64,000 nucleotides of DNA from an uncultured virus (IMG/VR IMGVR_UViG_3300009034_000029) (Duplodnaviria > Heunggongvirae > Uroviricota > Caudoviricetes), in IMG/VR virus record IMGVR_UViG_3300009034_000029; one strand, written 5' to 3'. Shown here piece by piece: positions 3,394 through 63,010 of the stretch (its first letter is position 1; each line of letters opens with the position of its first letter). Made by a program: the position numbers and the translations under genes. The notes below the pieces were generated by a model. That model did not search any database. It worked only from the letters and a program-made list of their open reading frames with translations, and had not been told where the DNA came from.

Positions 3394-4344
3394 GTGGTCG
3401 GTGATTTTAATATGAAGGAATATATTGGAGATAGAATGGAAGTTTGGAATGTTAGTGGAACAATGAGAGCGATATTAGAACTTAACGGCAAGGTAGTGAG
3501 GGTATTTGACAAGATATTACAAATCACGGATACGCGTCCGAGCGCCAATTGGAGCGAGCGTGGTAAGATTACGATCATAACCCCGAAGCCTATTTCAGAT
3601 CGATGGATGTCCTATCAACTCTCAGTAACCTATGATAATCTGATGTTACGAGTGAAAACTGTGTATAATCCAGGAGCGTATTGGATATGACTAGGTCATT
3701 TTCTTACCAAAATTTCTATTTCTACCACACTTACCACAATATTTATATAGGAAAAGATGGAACATTAAAATACAAATCAAATGATTAAAGGAGCCCATGA
3801 AACGGAGGTGACTACATGAAAAAGGAAGAATTTATAGGAACGGATCTATGGCTCTTTCCCAAAAAGAAGTTAGACGGCTGTACATATTTCAGTGCGGAAT
3901 TGAAGAATGCCAAGAAAAGGAAGAAGACAGTAAAACAGTGGAATGAAGTCTATGGTGTAGATACTAAGATGGATTGGGTAAGACTACTTATCAATTACAA
4001 TATCTGTAATAACGGGGATATAAGGATTCGATGTCCAGATAGGAATTTACAGTTGTTAAGGGTCACAGAGACCAATAAGGGTTATCCGAGCAAATTACAT
4101 TTAAAGATACAAACATGGTAAACAAGGAGGTATGTCTATGAAAAAGATGTTAGAGCCCTTGACTCCTCAAGAAGAGGAGTTATGGAAAAAAGTAAAGTCG
4201 TGGGTAGTCAATCATTTCATTGACTATCGTGATACGGAAGATGAAGATATCCGTAGGAATGTGGAGTTATATCAACGAACGCTTGATAAACTCAATGGTT
4301 ATGTTGAATATGCGAAGGGTATTGAAGTAGCCATGAGAACGTGA
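3394..4344 (+). CDS. Three small hypothetical proteins (3411-3690, 3816-4121, 4132-4344)
   Basis: ORFs with SD motifs (ggtga, ggaggtga, ggaggt). Confidence 0.7.
3735..3770 (+). promoter_or_regulatory. Archaeal TATA-box promoter (TTTATATAG) with a conserved downstream element
   Basis: tttatataggaaaagatggaacatta in an intergenic gap; near-identical to the motif at 11150. Confidence 0.65.
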
Positions 4345-4530
4345 AGGAGGGTCCGGTGAGAACGAGTATGGGTCAAAAAATAAGATGTCCGAGGAAAGGA
4401 TGTGGAAGGATATTGCATGTGAAGGGTAAGTCGTATCTTTTCGTGCGATGTCTATGTGGGTATGGTGCACAAGCTCCAAATACTTCAGAAGGTAGAGTAA
4501 TGATTGCAAGTCTTAGTAGGAGGAAGGCCA

Positions 4531-11142: not shown

Positions 11143-11180
11143 CCATAAGTTTATATAGACGAAAAGAGAACATTATAACC
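11143..11180 (+). promoter_or_regulatory. Archaeal TATA-box promoter
   Basis: ccataagtttatatagacgaaaagagaacatta upstream of the SD and ATG of 11203. Confidence 0.65.
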
Positions 11181-11578: not shown

Positions 11579-12661
11579 TTGATGTCTGAAGAAATTAACC
11601 CAACAATAGCGGAACAGCTAACTGGCTGGGCAACCTCCCATAAGGAGAAGCCCGAGAAGTACATAAAGATCTTTATGGATAAGATGGTTGATGTGGAGTC
11701 ACATCATCCTAGCTGGTCTGTAGAGAAAAAAGAAGAACGTGCAATATCTTTAGCACGTGCGGAAATTAAGGCTCTACGGAGAAGCCCTGCGATTTACTTC
11801 ACAGGGTTCATATTAGGAGCATCTGCCCCACGAGATATTTATGGACATCTAAGGGTTAGAGCAAATCAAGCGGCACAAGAAGATTTCGATAAAGCAGTGC
11901 GGGCTCGATTGGTAAATCCAGATGGGGAGCCACTAGATACACGGAAGAACCTAAGTTCAGGTAAGCCGAATCCGAACTATATGAAGAAAGTACCCCCAGC
12001 AGTCTTTATTAAGAATGTTGTGGGTGCAGTAGCACCAGAGACCGATCCAAAAGCTATGAAGCCATTTGTCATGAATATGACGAGAGAGATGGCTCAGGCT
12101 AGAGTACCAATAGGAATTAAGGCTAAATTCCGAGCCAATATGCAGAGACGAATGCCAGAAGATCGGTATTTATTGAATAGTTCGGTATATACAAGATTCG
12201 AAGAACTACCAGATGAAAGCTGGACTGAACAGGCCAAAATAGAGATGTTGCAGAAACATCCAGGATTTGTTCCGTTAGGGAAGTTAATGGATTGGAATGC
12301 AGCGAATGTCGCTGATATGCAGAAGGTTATTGTAACTGAAGGGGATGTTGTAGCTGTGTCTACACAACCTTCAGAGACAGGTAATCTTCGAATGGTACTG
12401 GAAGATACGTCCTTAGGAATGGATGCAGATCCAGTTACGGTGTTTATGTCGGGTGATATGAACATCGATTTCGGACCTGGAAGTAGAGTGTTAGTTATTG
12501 GACGACTGAATGTCGGCCGAGGTCTGAACAGAGAAACAGGGCAATTAGATCCAAACATTAAAGTACCCGTTATTGCTGGGTATGGAATATATTCAATGCC
12601 AGAATTTAGGAGACCACCAGAAGAAGTTTCTCCACAAGAGTTTAAAGACGTAAATCTATAG
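11579..12661 (+). CDS. Putative OB-fold ssDNA-binding (RPA/SSB-like) protein
   Basis: C-terminal OB-like strand pattern (VTEGDVVAV...MVLEDTS...FGPGSRVLVIGRL); located upstream of a recombination-type ATPase. Confidence 0.55.
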   Translation: MMSEEINPTIAEQLTGWATSHKEKPEKYIKIFMDKMVDVESHHPSWSVEKKEERAISLARAEIKALRRSPAIYFTGFILGASAPRDIYGHLRVRANQAAQEDFDKAVRARLVNPDGEPLDTRKNLSSGKPNPNYMKKVPPAVFIKNVVGAVAPETDPKAMKPFVMNMTREMAQARVPIGIKAKFRANMQRRMPEDRYLLNSSVYTRFEELPDESWTEQAKIEMLQKHPGFVPLGKLMDWNAANVADMQKVIVTEGDVVAVSTQPSETGNLRMVLEDTSLGMDADPVTVFMSGDMNIDFGPGSRVLVIGRLNVGRGLNRETGQLDPNIKVPVIAGYGIYSMPEFRRPPEEVSPQEFKDVNL

Positions 12662-12761
12662 GAACGTAAGATATTGGTATGCTCGACCAATATGCCTCCT
12701 TGTAAGAGGGGATGGTCAGTTATGATTCTTCCCCGCATACCTCCTACGAAATTCCTATAGA
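12655..12761 (+). ncRNA. Structured RNA closed by a bulge-helix-loop motif
   Basis: 10-bp stem tctataggaa/ttcctataga, 4-bp helix cgta/tacg, 3-nt bulge aaa; inner stems ggtatgc/gcatacc and cctc/gagg. Confidence 0.55.
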
Positions 12762-12771
12762 TAATTCATAA

Positions 12772-12885
12772 GGGAAGGACACAGGAAAGCATACGTGGGA
12801 GTTAATCCCATTGTCAGCGACGAGCCTACAGGGAGTAGGTGCGGTTCAATTCCGGACTCGTCGTATGTCCTAGATTGTCCTTTCC
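12772..12885 (+). ncRNA. Structured RNA closed by a BHB-like motif, containing a tRNA T-loop-like hairpin
   Basis: gggaaggaca/tgtcctttcc stem; cagg/ccta helix with aaa and gat bulges; gcatacg/cgtatgt; internal cgg-TTCAATT-ccg; followed by a T-run. Confidence 0.65.
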
Positions 12886-12904
12886 ATTTTTTTGTTAATA
12901 TGAG

Positions 12905-13693
12905 GTGACCAAGTTGGGCTGGACTAGTATGAAAACTGAGGAACAGAAGAAAGTAGAGATGGATGTAAAGCCAAGTGAGGTATTTACTCCTATTAAACAG
13001 GCTAAGAGGAGAAAAGGATTAAAAATTGCTATTGCTGGAAGGGAGGGATCTGGAAAGACTCACTTTGGATGTACTTGTCCTCCTCCGATTTATTTTATTG
13101 GGACTGAATTTGGAGTTGAGCAGGTGGCCAAGAAATTTAATAAGGAGATTCATCTCGTAGAGGCTGTGTATATTGATCCTAAGACTGATGAGATAGATCC
13201 CTTAAAGAGTTTAGATACAGTTGAAAGGGCAGTAAGGTCAGTAAGACATATTACGGAAGGGACTATAGTATTGGATACCGTTACTGCTATATGGAGTTGG
13301 CTTGGAGATTGGTTGAAGGTTATATATGATGCGGAGGTTAAACAGAAGAAGTTTTTCCAGTTCATGTGGGGACCTGCGAATAGACGATATGATGGTATAA
13401 TATTGAGATTGTTGAGTAGAGATACAACGGTTGTTTTTACTGGACAAAAAAGAGAGGTATGGATTGGGAAAGACAGACAGCCTAATTTATGGGAGCCAAA
13501 ATGGCAGAAAACGACTCCTCATTGGGTTGATGTGTTTATTGATATTAACAGTAATTTAAAAGCTGATGGAGGATATATCCACACGGCGAATATACCGAAA
13601 TGTAGGTTTAAGCAGTTGAATAGTGCGATGTTGGAGCCAATCACCTATCCTGCGTTAATAAAGAAGTTTGCAGAAGAGGGAGTTAAATGGTAG
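12905..13693 (+). CDS. P-loop ATPase (AAA_24/Sak4-like recombination ATPase)
   Basis: Walker A GREGSGKT, Walker B TIVLDT; downstream of the SSB-like gene. Confidence 0.75.
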   Translation: MTKLGWTSMKTEEQKKVEMDVKPSEVFTPIKQAKRRKGLKIAIAGREGSGKTHFGCTCPPPIYFIGTEFGVEQVAKKFNKEIHLVEAVYIDPKTDEIDPLKSLDTVERAVRSVRHITEGTIVLDTVTAIWSWLGDWLKVIYDAEVKQKKFFQFMWGPANRRYDGIILRLLSRDTTVVFTGQKREVWIGKDRQPNLWEPKWQKTTPHWVDVFIDINSNLKADGGYIHTANIPKCRFKQLNSAMLEPITYPALIKKFAEEGVKW

Positions 13694-15622: not shown

Positions 15623-15623
15623 G

Positions 15624-16236
15624 TTGTCTCTTAGTACCACGAACCTGAGAAGGCAGGGTACTAGTCACTAGCTTTCGTGTCTTACGAATCGAGGACGCAA
15701 GTCTTACCGAGGAGTTTGACAAGGCCACAAACCTGAACAGTCACGAGCCGGTATATGTAGAGACATTTACATAGAGGCATATGCGTATGTGACTGTATGG
15801 CCACAATCTGACTTAGTGACGTGGGATACACGAGACTGAAATGCGACTTAGACACGTTTTGTCACCGCAAAACTTTTTTTGAGTCGCTTGCCCCACTAAG
15901 ACAGACACAGACCTGGGATACGCACAATTGGCACGGAGTGCAAATAGCACAAACCCGACCGGATCGGTTCACGTTGATAATCGAGGTTGAAAAGCCTAGA
16001 TGGGCTCGTGCTGTAAGGATTAGAAGGGTTGAAGAAACCTAGTACAATCCGCGGCGAGTTAAAAGTAGTCATTTAGGATCTAATATCGTGTCAGCACGGT
16101 ATTAGAGTACCTCGGCCAATTGGCCAACGCGATCCCTAAGGGAGTTAAGGGTTACCCCGTGGTGTGGGTGTGCAGTATCTAGAGTTAATGACTTAAACAG
16201 GTATTCGTGTCTCAGGGTGGATATATTAAGAGATAA
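15624..16236 (+). ncRNA. Large (~600 nt) highly structured ncRNA closed by a canonical bulge-helix-bulge
   Basis: 13-bp outer stem, ccac/gtgg 4-bp helix with gaa and ata 3-nt bulges, 7-bp inner stem; many internal hairpins; no convincing SD-led ORF. Confidence 0.75.
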
Positions 16237-16254
16237 TATAGGGGGTTTCTGTCA

Positions 16255-17096: not shown

Positions 17097-17765
17097 ATGA
17101 AGGTTACTAGCATATTCTATTCTGTTCAAGGTGAAGGACAGAGCTTGGGACAGCCTTCTGTCTTTCTGAGATTGAATGGGTGTAATTTGAGATGTAAGTG
17201 GTGTGATACGAAGTATACATGGGCTGAAAGTGATGGGAAGGATATGAATATATCTGAGATTGCTTTTGGTGAGATAAAGAAATATCCTACTGCTAATAGG
17301 TTGGTTATAACTGGTGGGGAGCCTTTAATGCAGGCTGATGAAGTAGAGAGACTTATAAATGTATTACGGGAACAAAAAGATTGGTGGGTCGAAATTGAGA
17401 CTAATGGGACTATATCGCCTACCTTTAATAGTCCGAATTTATGGACAGTAGCTCCGAAGTTGAGTAATTCAGGAGTACCAGATTTTAAAAGAAAGATTAA
17501 GCAATCATGGTGGGACTATAGTTCTACAGGTAAGCTTATAGTGTATAAGTTTGTTGTAAATGATCCTGAGGATTCATGGGAAATTTTTGAATTTCAACAT
17601 AAGCATGGAATACCTTCAGAGAAGATTTACGTTATGCCGGAGTGTATAACTGTTGAGAAGCATAATGAGAATTTATTGTTGGCTATTGAAATGGCGAAGA
17701 ATAATGGGTGGAGGGTTACTCCTAGATTACATATACTAGCATGGGGGAATATACGAGGTGTCTGA
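17097..17765 (+). CDS. queE: 7-carboxy-7-deazaguanine synthase (radical SAM)
   Basis: IFYSVQGEG, CNLRCKWCDTKY, ITGGEPL, IETNGT, PKL, PRLHI motifs. Confidence 0.92.
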   Translation: MKVTSIFYSVQGEGQSLGQPSVFLRLNGCNLRCKWCDTKYTWAESDGKDMNISEIAFGEIKKYPTANRLVITGGEPLMQADEVERLINVLREQKDWWVEIETNGTISPTFNSPNLWTVAPKLSNSGVPDFKRKIKQSWWDYSSTGKLIVYKFVVNDPEDSWEIFEFQHKHGIPSEKIYVMPECITVEKHNENLLLAIEMAKNNGWRVTPRLHILAWGNIRGV

Positions 17766-18619
17766 CGAAATTGGATTATTACAAAAACGCATTGAAGACT
17801 TATATAAGATAGTACTTGACCTGATCGATCTAAACCAATTAGACGCTACTGCAGGCTTGTTACCTGATTGGTTTGTAAAAGATCAGAGAAAGAAAAGATC
17901 AGAACGTCTACGAATACAAGGGTGAAAAAACATGTGTAGATGTGCAGTGTGTGGTGAATGGATATTTGGTAAAATAATGGAGCTACAACACCCAATACCT
18001 ATTCCAGAATCTATGTACCTACATTCTCTCGGTAGGAGTACTGAGACTATAAGAATTCTTTGGAAGAAATATACAGTACATGAAAGACATGTAGATGATC
18101 TAAAGAAGATATTAGAAAGATTAGATGATGTGGGGGAATTAGAGATGTCTGATAAAGTTAAACTTGTAATGCCTAAGAATATGATACAGGCAATTAGTGG
18201 AGCTATATCATTAGCTCGTGAGGCTGACGGTGTTATATTAGATGAGAAGCTATATTTGTCTTTAAAGAAGCTTGAGGAGGATTTCAATACATTAGTTGAA
18301 ACGGCTGGTGTAGATACTAATGTGTTTCTACAAAGATATAAGAGGTGAAAGATTAATGAAATCTGATGCACGAAAGACTCTTGAGCATTCGGTAATTTCA
18401 GGATTGTCAAAGCGAGCACATCTAACTGGGGTGGCTATTGATACAGCTCATATTATGATAGAAGACTTGCTTTGGGAAATCTTCCATAATCCGTCAGTAC
18501 AATGGGCGGCACGAAAATATATACTTGAGGTGAAAGACATCAAGGGGTAGCTAGGCGGTTGATCCGTTGATCCGAGGAATCAACTTTTTTACCCTTGCTG
18601 TCCACTAAAAGGTGATTAT

Positions 18620-21529: not shown

Positions 21530-22154
21530 GGCTAGGATAATTATATGTCTCGAGAGTATGGATTATGATTTTCTGATGTCATGTAATGTACCGAATATTA
21601 AGGCATTAGATCCACACCCAGCTAAGTCGTGGGGTGGACATACGAGAGCATCTGTTCCTGCATTACTGGCTGGATTGATGCCAAAGTGTACTGTGAAGGG
21701 ATGTACAAAGCATGGCTATTTTAGATCTGGTCCTATGGAATTAGCAAGTTTCCATAAGGAAGGTGCATTATTTTTATATATACCAAACGGATGGATTTTG
21801 GAGTTAATTGATCATTATGTGAACTCTATTCAAAGAAAGCGGTTGATGTATTGGATAAATCATTTGAAGGATCAGCCCACAAAACAAATGGTTAAGGCCC
21901 TCCAAATGAATTTAATGGGACGTAGGGAGTATCTTGCATATCTCCACGTTATGGAAACACACTCTCCATTCTTCCCAAGTAATCCTAAGTCTGAGAATAG
22001 AAGGAAGGATGCGTTGGAGGAAGTAGATAAGATGATTGAGCCATTGTTGTTTGGATATCCTGAGGCTCAAGTTATTGTTACATCTGACCATGGGTTAAAA
22101 CATAATGAATGGAATGAAGGTGCATTTGATGTCTTTATTGCGACTAATAGGTAA
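21522..22154 (+). CDS. Alkaline phosphatase/sulfatase superfamily protein
   Basis: IICLESMDYD, T.ASVPALL, HVMETHSPF, VIVTSDHG. Confidence 0.7.
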   Translation: MTKARIIICLESMDYDFLMSCNVPNIKALDPHPAKSWGGHTRASVPALLAGLMPKCTVKGCTKHGYFRSGPMELASFHKEGALFLYIPNGWILELIDHYVNSIQRKRLMYWINHLKDQPTKQMVKALQMNLMGRREYLAYLHVMETHSPFFPSNPKSENRRKDALEEVDKMIEPLLFGYPEAQVIVTSDHGLKHNEWNEGAFDVFIATNR

Positions 22155-22929
22155 AACTAGGTCTATTATCAATTTTGTGAAGAACAAGTTTGATGATAAT
22201 GAGATTGGTATATTTTGGAGTGGAGGGAAGGACTCTACTGCTATGTTACATTTGATTGGAGAGACATGTGGGGAGATACCATGGCAGGTAGTGTATGTAA
22301 ATACTGGTTATCACTTTCGGGAAACACATAACTTTATTAGTAAGCTAAGCGATACATGGCAATTTGATGTCTGTCATATCTTGGCTGAATCACCTCGTAC
22401 ACCTAATAATTCTACTGTGAAGGAATGTTGTTATTCAAGAAAGACATATCCGATAAAAGCTACAATTGAGGAGTTTGAATTTAAAGGTGTATTTGTTGCT
22501 ATACGTAGGGACGAGCATGGTGTAAGAAATAAGGAGAGATTTATTTCTCCAAGGGATCAAGGTCTTAAATGGAACATCAAGGAGCAAGACACTGAGCTGT
22601 CCGGATGGAATATCTACTATGCAGATTATGGTGATCAATGTCATCATTTTAGGATACATCCATTGTTACATTGGAATGAAGTAGATGTATGGAATTACAT
22701 TAGGGACTTTGAGATACCTGTGAATCAGTTGTATTTTTCGAAGAACGGTAAGAGATATAGGTCGTTAGGATGTAAGACTTGTACGGTTCCTATAGAGAGT
22801 AATGCAGTCACTATTGATGATATGATTAAAGAGATTAAATCTGACCGTTGGGGTGAAAGAGACGGTAGGTGGAGTAAAAAAGATATGACAATTATTTATG
22901 AGCATATGAGAGCATTAGGATATTTCTGA
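22105..22929 (+). CDS. cysD: Sulfate adenylyltransferase subunit 2 (CysD; PAPS-reductase superfamily)
   Basis: WSGGKDS, IRRDEHGVRNKERFISPRD, RIHPLLHWNEVDVWNYI, RYRSLGC..CT.PIES, ER.GR. Confidence 0.82.
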   Translation: MNGMKVHLMSLLRLIGKTRSIINFVKNKFDDNEIGIFWSGGKDSTAMLHLIGETCGEIPWQVVYVNTGYHFRETHNFISKLSDTWQFDVCHILAESPRTPNNSTVKECCYSRKTYPIKATIEEFEFKGVFVAIRRDEHGVRNKERFISPRDQGLKWNIKEQDTELSGWNIYYADYGDQCHHFRIHPLLHWNEVDVWNYIRDFEIPVNQLYFSKNGKRYRSLGCKTCTVPIESNAVTIDDMIKEIKSDRWGERDGRWSKKDMTIIYEHMRALGYF

Positions 22930-23645: not shown

Positions 23646-23756
23646 GTGGAGGAAGTAGAGTGCCCAAATTGCCAGACAAAATTTGAAGCGAATCCAAATA
23701 GGATAACTACATGTCCGAACTGTGGGAATCAGTGGTGTGAGAATTGTGACGGATAA
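23646..23756 (+). CDS. 36-aa Cys-rich Zn-ribbon microprotein (not in the ORF track)
   Basis: gaggtga SD then GTG; MEEVECPNCQTKFEANPNRITTCPNCGNQWCENCDG*; overlaps the end of 23351-23686. Confidence 0.6.
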   Translation: MEEVECPNCQTKFEANPNRITTCPNCGNQWCENCDG

Positions 23757-24224
23757 ATGTTGTGAAGTTTGTACTAAGTTAGCTGAACAGACTGCAGCAA
23801 CCAACATGGCTCTTGGTATATGGGCGAGGTTTAGAGTAGTCGCCGATAATAAGAAAGCAGGATATTATAAGCATCGTGATTTTCTAGTTCATGATTCTTG
23901 CTTCTCTAAGTTTAAAGAGATATATGGTAAGATAGCAGTTAGACTACTACAAATCAAGGAGGAAGGATCTTATGGAAAACATTACTCGTAAGGGGTGGTA
24001 TTATGAAGTGTTGTGAAGCGTGTGCTAAGTTGGCTGAGAGTGTTGCTAATCGTAATGCGGTGTTAGGTCAGTGGGCTAATGTAAGTACAGTTAAGGATAA
24101 TGAAGAAGCAAAATATGAGAGTGTTGGAAGCTACTTAGTACATGAATCTTGTCTTGAGGGATTTAGAAGAATACATATGGATACTGTACATAGGATAATA
24201 ACTATTAAGGTGAAAGGATCATGA
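23722..24224 (+). CDS. Tandem paralogous Cys/His proteins (23722-23991, 24003-24224)
   Basis: KCCEVCTKLAE..LGIWA..LVHDSC versus KCCEACAKLAE..LGQWA..LVHESC. Confidence 0.7.
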
Positions 24225-25047
24225 TATATAATGCTCCGATATATAAGAGATGTCCACATTGTGGTAAGTTTATACATCCAGATCAGTATGATGCTCATAT
24301 AAATGCACATATGATAGAGGATGCAAAACGTAAGGGGTGATAAATTGAGTGCCTATGTCAGCTATTGGATTAATATGACTTGTGAAGATAATTCCACGAA
24401 TATACCACCGATATGTGCATGTTGTGGAACACCTATATATGGTAGTAGGAGTAAGTGGATAGATGGGCTTCAATATCATATAGACTGTGATGGTTGTTAA
24501 GAGGTGATTGTGATGACTGGTGTAAAAAAATCGATTGGCATGGATTATCTACCTGACATTAAATGTCATTGTGGTGGAAAATTATTACCAATAATCTTCA
24601 AGATATTAGAGGGAGAAAGACGTGATGATATGCTCCTTATAGCAGATATTGTTTGGAAATGTAGTAAATGTAAGACGATTATAGGTAGGGAAGAGTCCTA
24701 TGCGAAAACTAAGACGTCGAAGAAAAACCCCACGTAAAGCAGGTTGGGAGACATTTACGGCTTTTCAGAAGAGATGTTCGTGGAGGCAGTTTTATAATAC
24801 CTGTACGAATGTAGATGCCTGCCATATGATTTGTCGTATGACAAATTGTCCGGTATATACTAAAGAACGGAGGTGGATAAATGGTGAAGTTAACAGCCCA
24901 CGTTGAATTTAGAGATATCGGTATGGATAAATTAGAGTCACTACTCACTAAATTACATGGACATATATTTCATATGAAAGTAGGACGATTAGGTTCTAAA
25001 ACCTACACTGGAATAGTGACAAGTATAACTGTCGAATAGGTGGTGAC

Positions 25048-25578
25048 ATGACAGAAGTTAGAAGATCTGTACAAATAGCTGAGATTGGGATATTTGCGGC
25101 ACTCTATGCAGTGTTGACTTGGTTCTTGGCTCCGATTAGTTATATGGCGATACAGTTTAGGATGTCGGAGGTATTGAAGTCAGTGGTAATTAAACGGAGG
25201 CATATAATATTGGCCTTCGTGTTTGGTGTTGCATTGAGTAATGCATTTAGTCCATATGCGGGTATTTGGGAGTTTATCTGGATGCCATTCATCAATCTGA
25301 TTGGTGGCTTCGTATGTTGGGTAATTGGATCGAGATTTGCATACTATGTAAATATTAGTGAAGGACGAGCGTATAATATAACAGCGATATTTGCTTGTGC
25401 AGTGTACGGTGTAATCATTGCAGGTGGAGTAGCAATTATGTTGGACTTCGTATTGGGTATACCATTTATGGTATTGATTGGACCATTAGTGATCAGTGAA
25501 GTAGTGTTGTTAATAGCTTCGGCCTTGATTGTCTTACCCTTAGTAGATAAACTACCAACTTGGAGGGAGATGATTTAA
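25048..25578 (+). CDS. queT: QueT-like membrane transporter component (queuosine precursor)
   Basis: AALYAVLT..LAPISY.AIQFRMSE signature; multiple TM helices; adjacent to queC. Confidence 0.8.
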   Translation: MTEVRRSVQIAEIGIFAALYAVLTWFLAPISYMAIQFRMSEVLKSVVIKRRHIILAFVFGVALSNAFSPYAGIWEFIWMPFINLIGGFVCWVIGSRFAYYVNISEGRAYNITAIFACAVYGVIIAGGVAIMLDFVLGIPFMVLIGPLVISEVVLLIASALIVLPLVDKLPTWREMI

Positions 25579-25593
25579 CTCCCTCCCTTTTTT
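25562..25593 (+). terminator. Hairpin plus T-run
   Basis: ggagggag-atgatttaa-ctccctcc followed by ctttttt. Confidence 0.5.
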
Positions 25594-25610
25594 ATTATGG
25601 AGTGATGATG

Positions 25611-26339
25611 ATGAGTAATAATAGAAGAGTAGTAATATTATGGAGTGGTGGAATTGATTCTACTACCTTAGTATGGTGGGCAAAAAAGAAAGGAATGGAT
25701 GTTCGTACTCTGACTATTTATTATGGTCAGAAACATACTAAGGAAACTTCCTTCGTAGCGAAGCTTACAGAGAAATTTAGGATTGATAATAAGACTGTGG
25801 ATTTAGGAGCAATCCAGCCTCTTATTGATTATGGTGCACTAACTGGTACTGCTAATGTACCACAAGGTACGTATGATGAGAAGACCCAAAGAGTTACTAT
25901 TGTTCCAAATAGGAATATGATATTATTAGCCATTGCCGCTGGGTATGCTATAACATTGGGATCGTCGGTTATATTATATGCGGCTCACAGGAATGATCGT
26001 AGTATATATCCAGATTGTAGACCAGTGTTTGTTAATGCCATGAATGCTGCAATAGAAGCGGGGAATGTTTGGAGTCCCGTGGAGATATGGGCTCCTTTTA
26101 TTGATTATTCGAAGACTGAGATTGTAACGTTAGGTTTGAAATTAGATGTTCCATATGAGGATACTTGGAGTTGTTATGAAGGTGGAAGGAAGCCTTGTGG
26201 TAAATGTGGGACTTGTTTGGAGAGAACGGAAGCCTTTATGAACAATGTGGCTAATGACCCAGCATTGAACCCCAAGGATTGGATTAAGTTTATGGGGTAT
26301 TATAAGGATGCCAGAATTAGTGACGGTAACAAAACATAG
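25611..26339 (+). CDS. queC: 7-cyano-7-deazaguanine synthase
   Basis: SGGIDST, YGQKH, VPNRN, YPDCR, TWSCY, CGKCGTC.ER. Confidence 0.95.
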   Translation: MSNNRRVVILWSGGIDSTTLVWWAKKKGMDVRTLTIYYGQKHTKETSFVAKLTEKFRIDNKTVDLGAIQPLIDYGALTGTANVPQGTYDEKTQRVTIVPNRNMILLAIAAGYAITLGSSVILYAAHRNDRSIYPDCRPVFVNAMNAAIEAGNVWSPVEIWAPFIDYSKTEIVTLGLKLDVPYEDTWSCYEGGRKPCGKCGTCLERTEAFMNNVANDPALNPKDWIKFMGYYKDARISDGNKT

Positions 26340-30273: not shown

Positions 30274-30684
30274 ATGATGAAAATTGTAGTATGTGGTTCG
30301 TTTGGAGACATAGATTCGTTTTTAGGATATGTTGCACATTTAGTACGTCAAGGACATGAGGTGTATCCCAGTGTTATGCATATAGAACAGTCTAAGCAGA
30401 TAATTATGTCACAACATATAGAGAAGAAGGATAGTTATAGTGAGTTAGGAACTGTTTCGGAACTTAGAGCAACTATGATGAAGAAGTATTTTAAGAAGAT
30501 TAAGGAATGTGATATGGTACATGTCTACAATAGAAAGTTTGGAAAGGAGCACATTGGACTAGGAGCTGCTATGGAGATTGGTTATGCTTATGCACTTGGG
30601 AAGAAAGTAGAGTTTGTGATTAAGCCAAGTGATGGTAATGTAGCATCAATGAAGTTATTAGTTGACAGAGGTGAATTTGTTTGA
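30274..30684 (+). CDS. Nucleoside 2-deoxyribosyltransferase-like protein
   Basis: KIVVCGS, IKECDMVHVYN, IGLGAAMEIGYAYALGKKV. Confidence 0.72.
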   Translation: MMKIVVCGSFGDIDSFLGYVAHLVRQGHEVYPSVMHIEQSKQIIMSQHIEKKDSYSELGTVSELRATMMKKYFKKIKECDMVHVYNRKFGKEHIGLGAAMEIGYAYALGKKVEFVIKPSDGNVASMKLLVDRGEFV

Positions 30685-31334
30685 TAATTGTTGATACAAG
30701 AGAACCTATGAAGATAGATAATGTGTTAAGAAGATTGAAGATACCATTTAGAAGGCAGACATTAACTTATGGAGATTATAAGATCGGTGAGTTGATTATC
30801 GAGAGAAAGACCTGTGGAGATTTTATAGGATCCATTATGAGCAATAGACTTGATGATCAAATGTACAAGTTAAGTCAGTTCGATTATCCATGGTTGGTTA
30901 TCATTGGAGATTTCGATGCAGTAATAAGGGGATTTAAGAAAAGAGGACAGAAGTTAAACCCAGCCATTGTAGGCGGAGCTATTGGTAGTATAATGGTTAG
31001 ATATCCTACAATACACTTTGGATGGTTCCAACATGATAGACAAATGTTGTATATTATGAATAAAGCAGGAACTAAAATGGGTGAAGGGAAATATGGTATA
31101 CCAAGGAGATCGAATATTATATATAGGGGTAATAAACAAGTAGGAGCTTTGAGCAATATATTGAGAATGTCGCCAAATATTAGTAGAGCATTGTTATCGC
31201 GATTTGGAACAATAAGGGAGCTATCGAAGGCTACTGCTCTTGAATTAGAGAGAGTGTCTGGTATAGGACCTATTAAGGCAAGAGAGATCAAAGAGAGAAT
31301 AAGTATAATATGGAATGGTGTGTCGAAAATATGA
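30681..31334 (+). CDS. ERCC4/XPF (Hef-like) structure-specific nuclease with HhH
   Basis: IIVDTRE, GDY, IERKT..DF..SI; C-terminal VSGIGP helix-hairpin-helix. Confidence 0.9.
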   Translation: MIIVDTREPMKIDNVLRRLKIPFRRQTLTYGDYKIGELIIERKTCGDFIGSIMSNRLDDQMYKLSQFDYPWLVIIGDFDAVIRGFKKRGQKLNPAIVGGAIGSIMVRYPTIHFGWFQHDRQMLYIMNKAGTKMGEGKYGIPRRSNIIYRGNKQVGALSNILRMSPNISRALLSRFGTIRELSKATALELERVSGIGPIKAREIKERISIIWNGVSKI

Positions 31335-32479
31335 CATTATATGATATTATATTGAATACATTGGAATCAAGGAAGATTGCTAAGGTACAAATGTATGCAC
31401 CGTATTATGTTTGTTCAGCTATGGCACACTTATTTAACATTAAGAACAAAACTGAACCCGTGTATTATGAGGCAGGCAGAATACCAGATATGAGGATACA
31501 TATCATGTTCGTAGCACCTCCAGGGTTTAGTAAGAGCTTTTGGTTAGAGCAATTCTTAAGAGGTAATAGATCAATATTTGGTACTACAAGCATACAATGT
31601 GCTTTTGAAGGAACTATGACAGAAGCAGCATGGACTGGCACAATCAGGTTTATGGACGAAAATAAAGAACCAGTCATTAGACCAGGTGCAGCGCATGAAT
31701 TCCAAACAGCAATACTAGGTATTGAGGAATTTTCAGCGTTAACGAACATGATGAAGAGTCAGCATTCTAAGTTATTGGATAATGCATTGTTGACTAGTTT
31801 AGACTCAGGATGGTTATTCAAACGTCTCGCGGCAGGACCAATAAGATATATCACGCATATTACACTTCATACAGGAACACAACCTGCAAGATTTGATCTG
31901 TCAAGTGGTTTAGGGAGAAGGTTTATGTTTCTGTTATTTAATCCGTCGAAAGGTGAAATGGATGAAATTAAACTTGCTAGACGACGGAGTCAAAATATAT
32001 TAGGTGATTCAGCAGCATTAAGTGAGATTAGACAGAGAGTGCGGTATATTCAAGATTCAATAAAGAGGATACAGACTGTTGTGTTTGATAGATCAATACA
32101 AAAAGCATTTGATACATTGCCTATGCCGCATTATGAGGAACCTTTGTATGAGAGGTTGTTTTTGGGTTATACATTGGCTACGCAGGATTTTAATGAACAT
32201 GTAGTTGTTAAAACTGATACTGAGTCAATGAGACTACTCACTCAAGTAGTTAAATGGAGAAGGCAGGTTAAGAGAGGTAGTGAAGTTTCACAAGTTGCCA
32301 GTATAATTAATGAAGCTGGTGGAGTAATGACGATTCGTCAATTCAGAGAGAAAATGTTAGATTTCGGTGTGGATTGGCAAGGTAGTACAGAACTGATGAA
32401 TCAATTACAAAGAATGAGAGTTGTTATAGTATCAAAAGGCGAGATAAGGCTATGGAGGCGAAGAACCAGTGGTAAATGA
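31331..32479 (+). CDS. MCM-like AAA+ ATPase, putative replicative helicase
   Basis: Walker A APPGFSKS, T.AAW.GT, Walker B LGIEEF, GLGRRF arginine finger; C-terminal wHTH. Confidence 0.7.
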   Translation: MTLYDIILNTLESRKIAKVQMYAPYYVCSAMAHLFNIKNKTEPVYYEAGRIPDMRIHIMFVAPPGFSKSFWLEQFLRGNRSIFGTTSIQCAFEGTMTEAAWTGTIRFMDENKEPVIRPGAAHEFQTAILGIEEFSALTNMMKSQHSKLLDNALLTSLDSGWLFKRLAAGPIRYITHITLHTGTQPARFDLSSGLGRRFMFLLFNPSKGEMDEIKLARRRSQNILGDSAALSEIRQRVRYIQDSIKRIQTVVFDRSIQKAFDTLPMPHYEEPLYERLFLGYTLATQDFNEHVVVKTDTESMRLLTQVVKWRRQVKRGSEVSQVASIINEAGGVMTIRQFREKMLDFGVDWQGSTELMNQLQRMRVVIVSKGEIRLWRRRTSGK

Positions 32480-32954
32480 TAAGCAACAAACAACTGTGTA
32501 TTTAAGTAAAAGGTTAATTGATATTGTAAAGGCTAAGGGAATAAACCTTAGTAGGGTTGTTAATGATGTATTGGATTCGATGTTTGCTGCAGAAAGAAGT
32601 ACTAGACATTTGACACTCGACGTTCTTTCTGGACGAATGTCAGATATCGATTTACAGATACATGAGGCACAATTAGATGTTGATAGACTAAACTTGAGAA
32701 TTAACGAATTACATACACAGCGTAGGACACTTGGGTTCTCGTCAGAGAAACTAAAGGATGAAATTGCTCAGATTGAACGAAGTAAGAAAGTTGCTAAGAT
32801 ATTGAGTGAGATCAATACAATTATCAAAGACGTTGGATACACTATGGATGCATGGGACAAGATCGTAAAATATCAACAGGAACTCGGTGAGCTAGAACAT
32901 CCTATTGATGAGAATTGGTTGAGAATGCATATTAGAAGGTTACAGATGTATTGA
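32469..32954 (+). CDS. Ribbon-helix-helix (CcdA-like N-terminus) coiled-coil protein
   Basis: TTVYLSKRLIDIVKAKGINLSRVVNDVL followed by heptad repeats. Confidence 0.6.
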   Translation: MVNDKQQTTVYLSKRLIDIVKAKGINLSRVVNDVLDSMFAAERSTRHLTLDVLSGRMSDIDLQIHEAQLDVDRLNLRINELHTQRRTLGFSSEKLKDEIAQIERSKKVAKILSEINTIIKDVGYTMDAWDKIVKYQQELGELEHPIDENWLRMHIRRLQMY

Positions 32955-62173: not shown

Positions 62174-62189
62174 ATAAACACAACCAAGT

Positions 62190-62222
62190 ACAAAGAATTA
62201 TTCTTTTGCGTGTATATAAAGC
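62190..62222 (-). promoter_or_regulatory. Late-operon TATA promoter
   Basis: - strand gctttatatacacgcaaaagaataatt ~40 nt upstream of the TerS ATG. Confidence 0.6.
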
Positions 62223-62359
62223 TTCGTATAGGGCTCACAGCATTATATTATATCCTGTTTTGGAGTTAGCAAAAAGAAACTTGTGTTAGCAACACAATGT
62301 TTAGAAACAGGGGTAATTTGTTTAAGTCAGGTGTTTAGCGTTTTTGCTAAAAGAAACAT

Positions 62360-63010
62360 TTGCAATTTATAATGTAATGTTAATTAAATAGATAATTATT
62401 AAATTAAATAAATAAAATATTATTGTATATAAAATTTTATTATAAAATTAGATGATAGGTTATATATATAATCAAGATGTTATATAATTAAAAGTTTGTA
62501 TATAAAAATAAATAAGAGGTTAAATATATATGAAAAATGTTGAAAAGATAGATAAACATCTATTTAATTCGAAATTGATTGATATAGTATTAAAAATTGT
62601 TATAGAAATAGTAAAATGTAAAAATAATAAAGAAAAGATTTATATATATACGGAATTGTTTTATTATCAATGGAATAAGTTAATTAAATAGATAGATAGT
62701 TAATTAATCAATTAAACTATTATTTATATATAGACTATTTGATATAATCAAGTAGTCATATAAATATATAGGAGAAGATCTATATAAAGCATAAAGTAGC
62801 TAATCAAATACGAAGATTGTTGAATAAGCAAGAGAACAGTTATATAATCAAGCATAAGCTTAAAACTATAAAGCTAAACAAAGATAAATAGATAAACGCT
62901 TATTTAACTAGCAAGAAGTTTGAATAAGGAAATGATCTGTTGAATAAATAGACAGATCATTATACTTTATATTGACTATTTATAAATATAGATAGTCATT
63001 GATACATTCA
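62360..63010. other. Very AT-rich divergent intergenic region with short repeats (candidate origin/control region)
   Basis: Repeats atataatcaag and (t)aaatagata; located at the strand switch. Confidence 0.5.

What the first reader, a model, noticed from the sequence alone, without database searches (positions are those of the whole stretch)
12772..12885. BHB-closed 87-nt RNA containing a tRNA-like acceptor/T-arm module without an anticodon arm
Seen: 10-bp outer stem, cagg/ccta helix (one C-A mismatch), bulges aaa (12786-88) and gat (12873-75), and a 7-bp inner stem. Inside are tggga/tccca, cgacgag/ctcgtcg enclosing cctac-aggga-gtagg, and cgg-TTCAATT-ccg, a canonical T-loop. The cgacgag/ctcgtcg stem overlaps the inner stem by 2 nt, so two folds may alternate. 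Inference: a tRNA-elbow mimic reminiscent of Y-RNA or tmRNA tRNA-like domains. It sits next to the element carrying an anticodon-like loop.
Basis: partly seen in the sequence, partly recalled or inferred. Interest (0 to 1): 0.78.

Follow-up and report, generated by a model that had tools for sequence, protein, structure and literature searches.

The report
Virus RNA with tRNA-like top half
Between two replication genes of an uncultured archaeal-type tailed virus lie two neighbouring folded RNA elements, each closed by a motif like the one archaeal tRNA-splicing enzymes cut, and one holds a tRNA-like arm pair; it is unusual, but nothing yet shows it is made, cut or conserved.

Summary
At 12772-12885 (+) there is a 10-bp outer helix, a 4-position central helix (3 pairs and one C.A), offset 3-nt bulges (12786-88, 12873-75) and a 7-bp inner helix. 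This is bulge-helix-bulge (BHB) geometry in the right strand topology. It encloses 87 nt that hold a canonical T-arm abutting a 7-bp acceptor-like stem.

It is the best BHB in the window; 1 of 60 shuffles equals it. A second BHB-like element, E1 (12655-12761), lies 10 nt upstream and carries a CUUGUAA anticodon-like loop.

The window is a tailed virus with archaeal hallmarks. The elements sit between an RPA-like gene and a Sak4-like gene.

No tRNA, tmRNA or Y RNA model matches. No permuted or spliced tRNA can be built from the predicted cut sites. I found no homologous DNA and no RNA data. A 38%-identical relative keeps the gene pair but has only about 35 nt between the genes.

Best reading, confidence 0.35: host splicing endonuclease and ligase excise circular tRNA-like RNAs from an intercistronic spacer. 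Their function is inferred, not shown. The rivals are an unprocessed structured spacer, a tRNA-derived remnant and a selfish insertion.

The parts
11579..12661 (+). Upstream gene, 360 aa. Likely an RPA-like multi-OB-fold ssDNA-binding protein. This is a lead only.
   Evidence: No Pfam or PHROG family. The Atlas neighbours by features and by structure are archaeal RPA/OB-fold clusters, all under the naming bar. The only sequence match in the protein database is itself.
12655..12761 (+). E1, the neighbouring BHB-like element. Outer helix 12655-64/12752-61 (10 Watson-Crick bp). Central helix CGUA 12665-68/UACG 12745-48. 3' bulge AAA 12749-51. 5' AGA 12669-71, not followed directly by a helix. Inner 7-bp stem GGUAUGC 12676-82/GCAUACC 12735-41. 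Predicted excised piece 12671-12750 (80 nt).
   Evidence: Fold of 12655-12900: -82.8 kcal/mol, z = -4.0. Top relaxed BHB score in the window (35), but 52 of 100 shuffles reach 33 or more, so it is not significant alone.
12694..12710 (+). Anticodon-like hairpin in E1: GCCUC-CUUGUAA-GAGGG. It has U33 and A37 and would be anticodon UGU (Thr). One G.G mismatch at the base.
   Evidence: Sequence. ARAGORN in metazoan-mitochondrial mode calls 12676-12744 a D-loop-type tRNA-Thr(tgt), one of 7 such calls in the window. Standard mode calls nothing.
12772..12785 (+). E2 outer helix 5' strand (12772-81) and central helix 5' strand CAGG (12782-85).
   Evidence: Pair probability is 1.0 for the outer helix and 0.945 for the central helix.
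12786..12788 (+). E2 5' bulge AAA. Predicted cut between 12787 and 12788.
   Evidence: Geometry. The cut position after the second bulge base is recalled from the literature and was not tested here.
12789..12795 (+). E2 inner helix 5' strand GCAUACG. It pairs with 12862-68.
   Evidence: Pair probability 0.69 (C12790-G12867) falling to 0.37 (G12795-C12862).
12796..12810 (+). Hairpin UGGGA-GUUAA-UCCCA.
   Evidence: Pair probability 0.998.
12818..12864 (+). tRNA-like top half. Acceptor-like stem CGACGAG 12818-24/CUCGUCG 12857-63. Extra hairpin CCUAC-AGGGA-GUAGG 12825-39. T-arm UGCGG-UUCAAUU-CCGGA 12840-56, directly abutting the 3' acceptor strand. Unpaired U12864 sits at the discriminator position.
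   Evidence: Sequence. It is the only such module in the window. Best fold with this stem enforced is -44.2 against the MFE of -44.9 kcal/mol.
12862..12885 (+). E2 3' side. Inner strand CGUAUGU 12862-68. Central CCUA 12869-72. Bulge GAU 12873-75 (predicted cut 12874|12875). Outer strand 12876-85.
12887..12893 (+). T7 run directly after the outer helix. Likely an archaeal-type oligo-T termination or pause signal.
   Evidence: Sequence. Similar oligo-T runs end other gene blocks.
12905..13693 (+). Downstream gene, a Sak4-like AAA_24 ATPase. The Shine-Dalgarno sequence GAGGUGA lies at 12902-08.
   Evidence: PF13479, E 2.2e-13. phrog_124 Sak4-like.

Best explanation
The 243-nt spacer between the RPA-like and Sak4-like genes of an archaeal-type tailed virus carries two tandem, independently folding RNA elements, E1 and E2. 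Each is closed by a long helix with bulge-helix-bulge geometry.

Proposed mechanism:
1. The elements are transcribed with the upstream gene, ending or pausing at the T7 run.
2. The host tRNA-splicing endonuclease cuts in the two bulges of each element.
3. The host RtcB-type ligase rejoins the flanks into two 10-bp hairpins with 7-nt loops and closes the excised pieces into circles of 80 nt (E1) and 87 nt (E2).
4. The E2 circle displays a tRNA-like top half: an acceptor-like stem stacked on a canonical T-arm, plus one extra hairpin whose AGGGA loop could serve as a D-loop or variable-arm substitute. It has no anticodon arm.
5. It therefore most likely acts as a stable mimic of the tRNA elbow/acceptor domain for host tRNA-binding factors. 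E1 would supply an acceptor-like stem and a Thr-type anticodon loop.

What is shown: the sequence features, their thermodynamic stability and their rarity.

What is inferred: transcription, cleavage, circularisation, which of the two competing folds forms, and any function.

My odds: a real structured RNA element 0.8; cut at the BHB 0.5; the tRNA-like fold forms 0.5; the whole chain 0.35.
For: - Structure: z = -3.64 for E2 and -4.0 for the whole spacer.
- BHB: E2 has the highest strict BHB score in the window, 44 against a next best of 39; 1 of 60 shuffles reaches 44 (first look).
- E1, 10 nt upstream on the same strand, has the highest relaxed score, with 14 perfect Watson-Crick pairs interrupted by a 3-nt bulge.
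- Bulge topology, with each bulge 3' of its central strand, fits the + strand only. This follows from reading against the recalled BHB definition.
- T-arm: it has the G-C closing pair and loop UUCAAUU, and it abuts a perfect 7-bp stem with no spacer, as in tRNA.
- Archaeal setting: PolB is nearest to halovirus PolBs. A short XPF aligns over its full length with Aeropyrum pernix XPF. RPA-like leads are all archaeal. TTTATATAG promoters share a downstream box. Sigma-70-like sites are depleted, 45 against 67.9+-8.2.
- Precedent: the archaeal endonuclease also cuts BHBs in rRNA precursors, one mRNA and a 5' UTR, and the excised pieces are circularised (passages of PMC7714728).
- An 83%-identical relative keeps an ungapped equivalent of 12863-12913, with CCN-AGR and the T run preserved. 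This is inferred from its over-extended ORF call.
Against: - No expression data. The only holder of the sequence is the source DNA sample.
- No homologous DNA in any collection searched.
- The 38% relative has the same gene pair with only about 35 nt between the genes, so the elements are dispensable for that module.
- Imperfections: a C.A mismatch next to the 3' bulge of E2; no helix directly after the 5' AGA of E1, where the MFE instead draws a 1x1 loop plus 2 bp; a G.G mismatch in the T stem.
- The MFE (-44.9) is a five-way junction without the minihelix. The T-stem pair probability is only 0.43.
- Window-wide, the T-arm/acceptor module is not rare by itself: 20 of 100 shuffles have one. 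E1's closure is not significant alone.
- Rfam and ARAGORN see nothing tRNA-like in standard modes.
- The changes inferred in the 83% relative hit at least 4 paired positions whose partners I cannot see.
- No virus-encoded endonuclease, ligase or other RNA enzyme among the 110 ORFs scanned with Pfam.
- The host is not identified.
Confidence: 0.35

Rival explanations
1. A structured intercistronic or 3'-end element that is never cut at the bulges. The two multi-branched hairpins followed by T7 would stabilise the upstream mRNA, terminate or pause transcription, or tune translation of the Sak4-like gene. The BHB and tRNA likenesses would be incidental.
For: - It lies exactly between two co-oriented genes, with the T7 run right after the outer helix and the Shine-Dalgarno sequence 17 nt further on.
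- There is no room for a promoter between T7 and the next start.
- E1 holds two CCUCC anti-Shine-Dalgarno-like motifs.
- E1's closure is not significant alone, and both BHBs are imperfect.
Against: - Archaeal termination needs only oligo-T, and other gene ends in this window have T runs without such structures.
- It does not explain two offset 3-nt bulges 4 positions apart in the right topology in the best-scoring site of the window.
- It does not explain the canonical T-loop abutting a 7-bp stem.
- The 38% relative does without it.
Confidence: 0.25
2. tRNA-derived remnants. E2 would be a class II (long variable arm) or ordinary tRNA gene that lost its D and anticodon arms. E1 would be a decayed or highly non-canonical tRNA-Thr(UGU). 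They would be pseudogenes or odd tRNAs processed by RNase P and tRNase Z, not by BHB cutting.
For: - The 7+15+17+7 layout of 12818-12863 equals acceptor, variable-arm-like hairpin, T-arm and acceptor of a class II tRNA with positions 8-44 removed.
- ARAGORN mitochondrial mode calls E1 tRNA-Thr(tgt) with a perfect 7-bp acceptor, then U and CC.
- In a series of 28,785 single deletions, only this region yields sub-threshold tRNA calls: 14 at 95% of the threshold and 174 at 90%. Four control regions give 0.
- ACA makes up 274 of 864 Thr codons in 27 viral genes.
Against: - Standard ARAGORN gives 0 calls, with introns allowed or not, and on circles. The deletion series gives 0 at the default threshold.
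- The Rfam tRNA model is silent at E<=10.
- The sub-threshold chimeras need deletion end-points that match no predicted cut site.
- Decay does not create 10-bp closing helices with offset bulges around each piece.
- No tRNA in 185,579 species genomes carries the T-arm/acceptor string. The single match is a non-tRNA site in a Planctomycetota MAG.
Confidence: 0.15
3. A selfish insertion: a mobile BHB-intron-like or MITE-like cassette with terminal inverted repeats that landed in the spacer and is neutral for the virus.
For: - It is present in this virus and apparently in its 83% relative, but absent from the 38% relative with the same gene order.
- Each element is bounded by 10-bp inverted repeats.
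- The two inner stems share the core GCAUAC/GUAUGC in flipped orientation.
Against: - No other copy in the 64-kb window.
- No copies in the phage, plasmid or viral-contig collections.
- No clear target-site duplication.
- E1's left repeat overlaps the last codons (V-N-L-stop) of the upstream gene, which align with V-N-V-S-stop in the relative.
- E1 and E2 do not align convincingly with each other.
Confidence: 0.15
4. The host is a bacterium, and the 21-position interrupted stems are RNase III-type processing sites or an elaborate intrinsic terminator.
For: - Terminase and QueC relatives are mostly bacterial or phage.
- The stem plus T run resembles a terminator.
Against: - PolB is nearest to haloviruses, the short XPF to Aeropyrum, and the RPA-like leads are archaeal.
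- The window has TATA-type promoters.
- Sigma-70-like sites are depleted and intrinsic terminators are not enriched, 13 against 9.2+-3.2.
Confidence: 0.05

Closest known systems
Archaeal BHB substrates outside tRNA anticodon loops: rRNA processing stems, the cbf5 mRNA intron, the HVO_1309 5' UTR intron
   Same: A long helix carries two 3-nt bulges 4 bp apart. The piece between the cuts is circularised and the flanks are religated. An untranslated part of an mRNA can be the carrier (passages of PMC7714728).
   Different: - This one is in a virus, in an intercistronic spacer, as two tandem elements whose excised parts are the information-rich ones.
- E2 has a C.A mismatch in the central helix, and E1 lacks the inner helix next to its 5' bulge.
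- No cleavage has been shown.
Circularly permuted tRNA genes and the permuted SRP RNA gene of Thermoproteus (the latter recalled; review PMC3978253 seen as listing and abstract only)
   Same: Leader and trailer pair into a BHB that encloses the functional RNA, and a circular RNA is the product or intermediate.
   Different: Opening the predicted E1 or E2 circle at any point gives no tRNA in ARAGORN standard mode, even at 80% of the threshold. In E2 the order acceptor 5' strand, hairpin, T-arm, acceptor 3' strand is not permuted.
Split tRNA genes (Nanoarchaeum, Caldivirga)
   Same: Long complementary helices of 10-14 bp lie next to a relaxed BHB (passage of PMC4090602). The tRNA features are spread over separate pieces.
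   Different: Here each helix forms in cis around its own piece. No joining of the pieces at the predicted cuts gives a cloverleaf.
tRNA-like domains without an anticodon arm: the tmRNA tRNA-like domain and the bacterial Y RNA YrlA (recalled)
   Same: An acceptor stem stacked on a T-arm with a canonical T-loop and a reduced D-like element, with the anticodon arm missing.
   Different: - No match to any Rfam model.
- No tmRNA call here.
- No Ro or SmpB-like gene in the window.
- No encoded CCA.
- An archaeal rather than bacterial setting.
tRNA-like processing signals in longer transcripts: plant mitochondrial t-elements and mascRNA of MALAT1 (recalled)
   Same: An acceptor/T-arm module embedded in an mRNA or long RNA could be read by RNase P and tRNase Z.
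   Different: This module is enclosed by a further BHB-type closure. No RNase P or tRNase Z cleavage was tested.

Membership tests
Archaeal BHB (hBHBh') splicing-endonuclease substrate | Two 3-nt bulges on opposite strands, separated by a 4-bp helix and flanked by helices, with each bulge 3' of its central strand | tested here: inconclusive
   - E2: bulges of 3 nt, 4 positions apart, 10-bp and 7-bp flanking helices, correct topology, but one C.A in the central helix.
- E1: perfect 10+4 bp and a 3' bulge, but no helix directly after the 5' AGA.
- These fit relaxed forms only.
Archaeal BHB (hBHBh') splicing-endonuclease substrate | Cleavage by the endonuclease and ligation or circularisation in vivo or in vitro | not testable with these tools
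   No RNA run holds the sequence. The laid contigs show no joints.
tRNA (Rfam RF00005 / ARAGORN) | A cloverleaf with acceptor, D, anticodon and T arms, scoring above model thresholds | tested here: not met
   - 0 ARAGORN genes.
- 0 Rfam matches at gathering score.
- No tRNA match at E<=10 in 12550-13000.
- E2 has no anticodon arm. E1 is called only in metazoan-mitochondrial mode.
Circularly permuted tRNA | The circle made at the BHB yields a complete tRNA when opened at the acceptor ends | tested here: not met
   ARAGORN with circular topology on the 80-nt and 87-nt circles and on both concatenations gives 0 genes in standard mode at the default, 90% and 80% thresholds.
Split or multi-intron tRNA | Removing the BHB-bounded segments, or joining the pieces, gives a complete tRNA | tested here: not met
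   - The spliced flanks give 0 genes.
- 28,785 single deletions give 0 at the default threshold.
- Sub-threshold calls use end-points unrelated to the predicted cuts.
tmRNA tRNA-like domain | A match to tmRNA models, with a tag reading frame and an alanine-type G3.U70 | tested here: not met
   No Rfam match. ARAGORN tmRNA mode gives only 3 low-threshold calls, all elsewhere. The acceptor-like stem has A3-U70.
Y RNA / YrlA | A match to Y RNA models, a Ro-binding stem, and an adjacent Ro (TROVE) gene | tested here: not met
   No Rfam match. No TROVE or RtcB family among the 110 ORFs scanned with Pfam.
T-loop motif (tRNA elbow) | A 5-bp stem closed by G53-C61 and loop U54-U55-C56-R57-A58-N-N, directly stacked on the acceptor 3' strand | tested here: met
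   UGCGG-UUCAAUU-CCGGA at 12840-56 has G12844-C12852 closing the loop and one G.G at the second stem position. It is followed at once by CUCGUCG, which pairs with CGACGAG. Tertiary folding is not testable here.
Phage attachment site copying a tRNA 3' end | An integrase gene, and identity to a host tRNA 3' part | tested here: not met
   No integrase or recombinase family among the 110 ORFs. The only genome match to the T-arm/acceptor string is a non-tRNA site.

The most novel reading that the evidence does not exclude
An archaeal virus encodes a two-piece tRNA mimic that the host's own tRNA-splicing machinery releases as exonuclease-resistant circles.

- E1 would present an acceptor stem and a Thr-type anticodon loop.
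- E2 would present the acceptor/T-arm elbow with a variable-arm-like hairpin.
- The circles would bind or decoy host tRNA-recognising factors: RNase P, tRNase Z, the CCA-adding enzyme, a synthetase that reads the variable arm, or tRNA-targeting defence nucleases.
- The two inner stems share the core GCAUAC/GUAUGC in flipped orientation, so the two circles could also pair with each other.

This would be the first virus-encoded BHB-excised circular RNA, and the first BHB introns in a viral intercistronic spacer.
Probability: 0.15. Interest if true: 0.85.

Novelty: new variant of a known kind. Interest (0 to 1): 0.58.

Why it matters
Known substrates of the archaeal splicing endonuclease outside tRNA and rRNA can be counted on one hand. 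The passages of PMC7714728 read name one mRNA and one 5' UTR. My three literature searches found no report of a virus using this pathway or of a BHB-enclosed tRNA-like RNA. If E1 and E2 are cut and circularised, that would show an archaeal virus borrowing the host tRNA-splicing machinery to make stable small RNAs. It would also add a tRNA-elbow mimic to the archaeal virus-host toolkit, alongside tmRNA, Y RNA and viral tRNA-like structures in other domains. If they are not processed, this is simply an unusually structured spacer in a singleton virus.

Tried and rejected
**Searches for related sequence**
- Homologous DNA: blastn against phages and plasmids found nothing.
- Exact strings in viral contigs found nothing.
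- A degenerate T-arm/acceptor pattern in 185,579 species genomes gave 1 match. It is a non-tRNA site in a Planctomycetota MAG, taken as chance.
- Related loci through the Sak4-like protein: none in viral contigs, with the single protein or with the alignment. One metagenome contig, L002, was found.
- Protein relatives: the Sak4-like protein has 2 besides itself. The RPA-like protein has none.
- The nearest held virus record, G001, is the same virus from window position 18527 on and lacks the region.

**Expression**
- No RNA holder is listed.
- Laying the three DNA runs at 80% likeness gave no variants and no joints. X2 and X3 had no cover.

**Other readings tested**
- C/D box, H/ACA and K-turn readings: no boxes and no tandem G.A after the bulges (read). 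The SNORD59 match on the minus strand has E 2.1 and is taken as noise.
- Other BHB candidates in the window (4383-4453 and 23722-23901, score 39) lie within the shuffle range and in stretches with small zinc-ribbon ORFs, so I rejected them.
- E1 and E2 as duplicates of one element: the alignment is unconvincing.
- A small protein in the open + frame 12765-12908: no relative in the protein database.
- A permissive BHB scan that allowed G.U everywhere was uninformative and timed out.

**Unavailable**
- Earlier findings were not open, and the window's own assembly is not held.

Full report
**What is there**

The window is one strand of a tailed virus. About 34 kb of + strand early and replication genes is followed by a - strand structural block. 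That block holds a tail tube, a tape measure and a terminase.

The finding lies in the 243-nt gap between ORF 11579-12661 and ORF 12905-13693.
- a 10-bp outer helix (12772-81/12876-85);
- a central helix CAGG/CCUA with C12782.A12872 unpaired;
- bulges AAA (12786-88) and GAU (12873-75);
- a 7-bp inner helix (12789-95/12862-68);
- hairpin UGGGA-GUUAA-UCCCA;
- the stem CGACGAG/CUCGUCG (12818-24/12857-63), enclosing CCUAC-AGGGA-GUAGG and a T-arm.

The T-arm reads best as five positions, UGCGG/CCGGA, with one G.G mismatch, a G-C pair closing the loop UUCAAUU, and no spacer before CUCGUCG. That is the tRNA arrangement of T stem and acceptor 3' strand. U12864 sits at the discriminator position, and no CCA follows.

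**Is it more than chance?**

- The 114 nt fold at -44.9 kcal/mol, z = -3.64; 1 of 200 shuffles folds as well. The whole spacer gives z = -4.0.
- I wrote a scanner for the BHB layout: outer helix, 4-position central helix with at most one mismatch, 3-nt bulges each 3' of the central strand, and an inner helix.
- E2 is the best site on either strand of the window, with score 44 against a next best of 39. One of 60 shuffles of the whole window reaches 44 (first look).
- The module of T-arm plus abutting 7-bp acceptor occurs once in the window. On a window-wide count it is not rare: 20 of 100 shuffles have at least one. What is improbable is that it lies inside the best BHB in one of the few non-coding gaps.
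- The minus strand folds with the same z. The strand is assigned from the bulge topology, the T-loop, two G.U pairs, the T7 run at 12887-93 and the gene direction.

**A second element**

Folding the whole gap shows that the neighbour E1 (12655-12761) is closed in the same way. It has ten Watson-Crick pairs (12655-64/12752-61), CGUA/UACG, and a 3' bulge AAA (12749-51). Its 5' AGA (12669-71) is not directly followed by a helix, and the MFE draws a 1x1 loop and 2 bp there.

E1 is the top relaxed BHB hit of the window, but such a closure is not significant by itself: 52 of 100 shuffles reach 33 or more.

Inside E1 are:
- a 7-bp stem GGUAUGC/GCAUACC, followed by U and CC;
- a hairpin GCCUC-CUUGUAA-GAGGG with a textbook Thr(UGU)-type loop.

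ARAGORN calls 12676-12744 a tRNA-Thr only in its permissive metazoan-mitochondrial mode, which makes 7 calls in this window.

The inner stems of E1 and E2 share the core GCAUAC/GUAUGC in flipped orientation. Otherwise the two elements do not align convincingly.

**Setting**

- PolB is nearest to haloarchaeal tailed viruses, at 24.6-26% identity and E down to 3e-57.
- A 217-aa ERCC4-HhH nuclease aligns over its full length with Aeropyrum pernix XPF, E 6e-11.
- The upstream 360-aa protein has only archaeal RPA/OB-fold neighbours in the Atlas. These are leads under the naming bar.
- Two + strand gaps carry TTTATATAG followed by a shared AAAGA..GAACATTA box, and genes use GGAGGTG.
- Sigma-70-like sites are depleted, 45 against 67.9+-8.2, and intrinsic terminators are not enriched.
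- Terminase and QueC relatives are bacterial or phage, so the host domain is likely archaeal, not certain.
- The source is a sediment metagenome.
- No endonuclease, ligase, Ro, integrase or other RNA enzyme was found among the 110 ORFs scanned with Pfam or the 19 scanned with PHROGs.

**What it is not**

- Rfam gives 0 matches at gathering score in the window. At E<=10 in 12550-13000 it gives only two noise matches, neither a tRNA, tmRNA or Y RNA.
- ARAGORN finds no tRNA, with or without introns, and no tmRNA here.
- Treating the predicted excised pieces as circles (80 and 87 nt), joining them in either order, or splicing the flanks gives no tRNA in standard mode, even at 80% of the threshold.
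- A brute-force series of 28,785 single deletions of 12640-12900 gives no tRNA at the default threshold.
- At 95% and 90% of the threshold it gives 14 and 174 calls. Most are chimeric tRNA-Ser(gct) built from the hairpin at 12671-93 and E2's hairpin, T-arm and acceptor strand. Their end-points match none of the predicted cut sites.
- Four control regions gave 0 such calls. This shows only that E2's T-arm module is tRNA-like enough to seed the calls.
- Permuted, split and multi-intron tRNA readings were therefore tested and not met.

**Two folds**

The ensemble is split. The MFE (-44.9) is a five-way junction without the minihelix. The best fold with CGACGAG/CUCGUCG enforced is -44.2. Pair probabilities are 0.40-0.56 for that stem, 0.43 for the T stem, 0.88 for the CCUAC hairpin and 0.998 for the UGGGA hairpin. 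Nearest-neighbour energies ignore T-loop tertiary contacts, so the calculation cannot settle which fold forms.

**Comparative evidence**

It is thin.
- No similar DNA in phages or plasmids.
- No exact matches in viral contigs.
- One chance match in species genomes.
- The flanking proteins are nearly orphans.
- One metagenome contig, L002, encodes a 38%-identical Sak4-like protein directly after a homologue of the upstream gene's C-terminus. Only about 35 nt lie between them and there is no E1 or E2. The elements are therefore an insertion, or a loss, within a conserved gene pair.
- The 83%-identical relative P0002 was called with an N-terminal extension, MRPRVVLPFFYNYEVTR. This aligns without gaps to the window's frame from 12863 (VCPRLSFPFFC*YEVTK). 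It implies that CCN-AGR (central helix and bulge) and the T run are kept.
- It also implies changes at about 10 of 51 positions. At least four of those lie at paired positions whose partners I cannot see.
- The contig itself could not be fetched.

**Expression**

Not testable here.

**Most likely mechanism**

Confidence for the whole chain is 0.35.
1. The spacer is transcribed with the RPA-like gene. There is no room for a promoter between T7 and the next start.
2. The host splicing endonuclease cuts both bulges of each element.
3. The ligase rejoins the flanks and circularises the 80-nt and 87-nt pieces.

The cut position after the second bulge base and the broad specificity of heterotetrameric enzymes are recalled from the literature, not tested. 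The passages of PMC7714728 that I read show that BHBs in rRNA precursors, one mRNA and a 5' UTR are cut, and that excised pieces are circularised.

The E2 circle would display an acceptor/T-arm top half plus one hairpin. Its AGGGA loop could stand in for a D-loop, or the hairpin could be the variable arm of a class II tRNA that lost positions 8-44. A role as a stable tRNA-elbow mimic is inference only.

**Rivals**

- An unprocessed structured spacer (0.25).
- tRNA-derived remnants (0.15).
- A selfish insertion (0.15).
- A bacterial RNase III or terminator reading (0.05).
- The remainder is chance.

**Verdict**

I rate it a new variant of known kinds (BHB-bounded RNAs; tRNA-like domains without an anticodon arm), with interest 0.58.

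Noticed in passing
window 12655-12761: The neighbouring element with the anticodon-like loop is itself closed by a BHB-like motif: 10 perfect bp, CGUA/UACG and a 3' bulge AAA. It contains a 7-bp acceptor-like stem followed by U-CC. ARAGORN mitochondrial mode calls it tRNA-Thr(tgt).
   Followed up: yes
window 3742-3775 and 11150-11180: Two + strand intergenic gaps share TTTATATAG followed by AAAGA..GAACATTA. This is likely an archaeal TATA-type viral promoter motif. Genes use a strong GGAGGTG Shine-Dalgarno sequence.
   Followed up: partly
window 17097-17765, 22105-22929, 25048-26339, 30274-30684: A gene set that suggests 7-deazaguanine (preQ0-type) nucleic-acid modification. It comprises a radical-SAM/4Fe-4S protein, a PAPS-reductase-domain protein, a QueT-like transporter, QueC, and a weak nucleoside deoxyribosyltransferase-like hit.
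   Followed up: no
window 15623-15820 and 16043-16254: Two G+C-richer non-coding stretches. The first folds with z = -2.5, the second with z = -1.45. The second has GGGAGTTAAGGG, which resembles E2's GGGAGTTAATCCC hairpin. No BHB was found.
   Followed up: partly
window 62174-63007: An 834-nt AT-rich non-coding region with many TTTATATA and AATAGATAG-type repeats, between divergent gene blocks. It is a candidate origin or regulatory region.
   Followed up: no
window 23700-24900: A run of small paralogous ORFs with Cys-rich, zinc-ribbon-like motifs. A BHB-like hit here (23722-23901, score 39) lies within the shuffle range and is probably chance.
   Followed up: partly
window 30681-31334: A short XPF-type nuclease (ERCC4 plus two HhH). 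It aligns over its full length with Aeropyrum pernix XPF, which hints at a host among archaea that use short XPF.
   Followed up: partly
L002 1-400: A distant relative keeps the gene order (homologue of the 360-aa protein, then the Sak4-like gene) with only about 35 nt between them. The E1/E2 spacer is therefore lineage-specific.
   Followed up: yes
window 32469-32954: ORF with an N-terminal CcdA antitoxin-like match (PF07362, E 8.5e-08).
   Followed up: no
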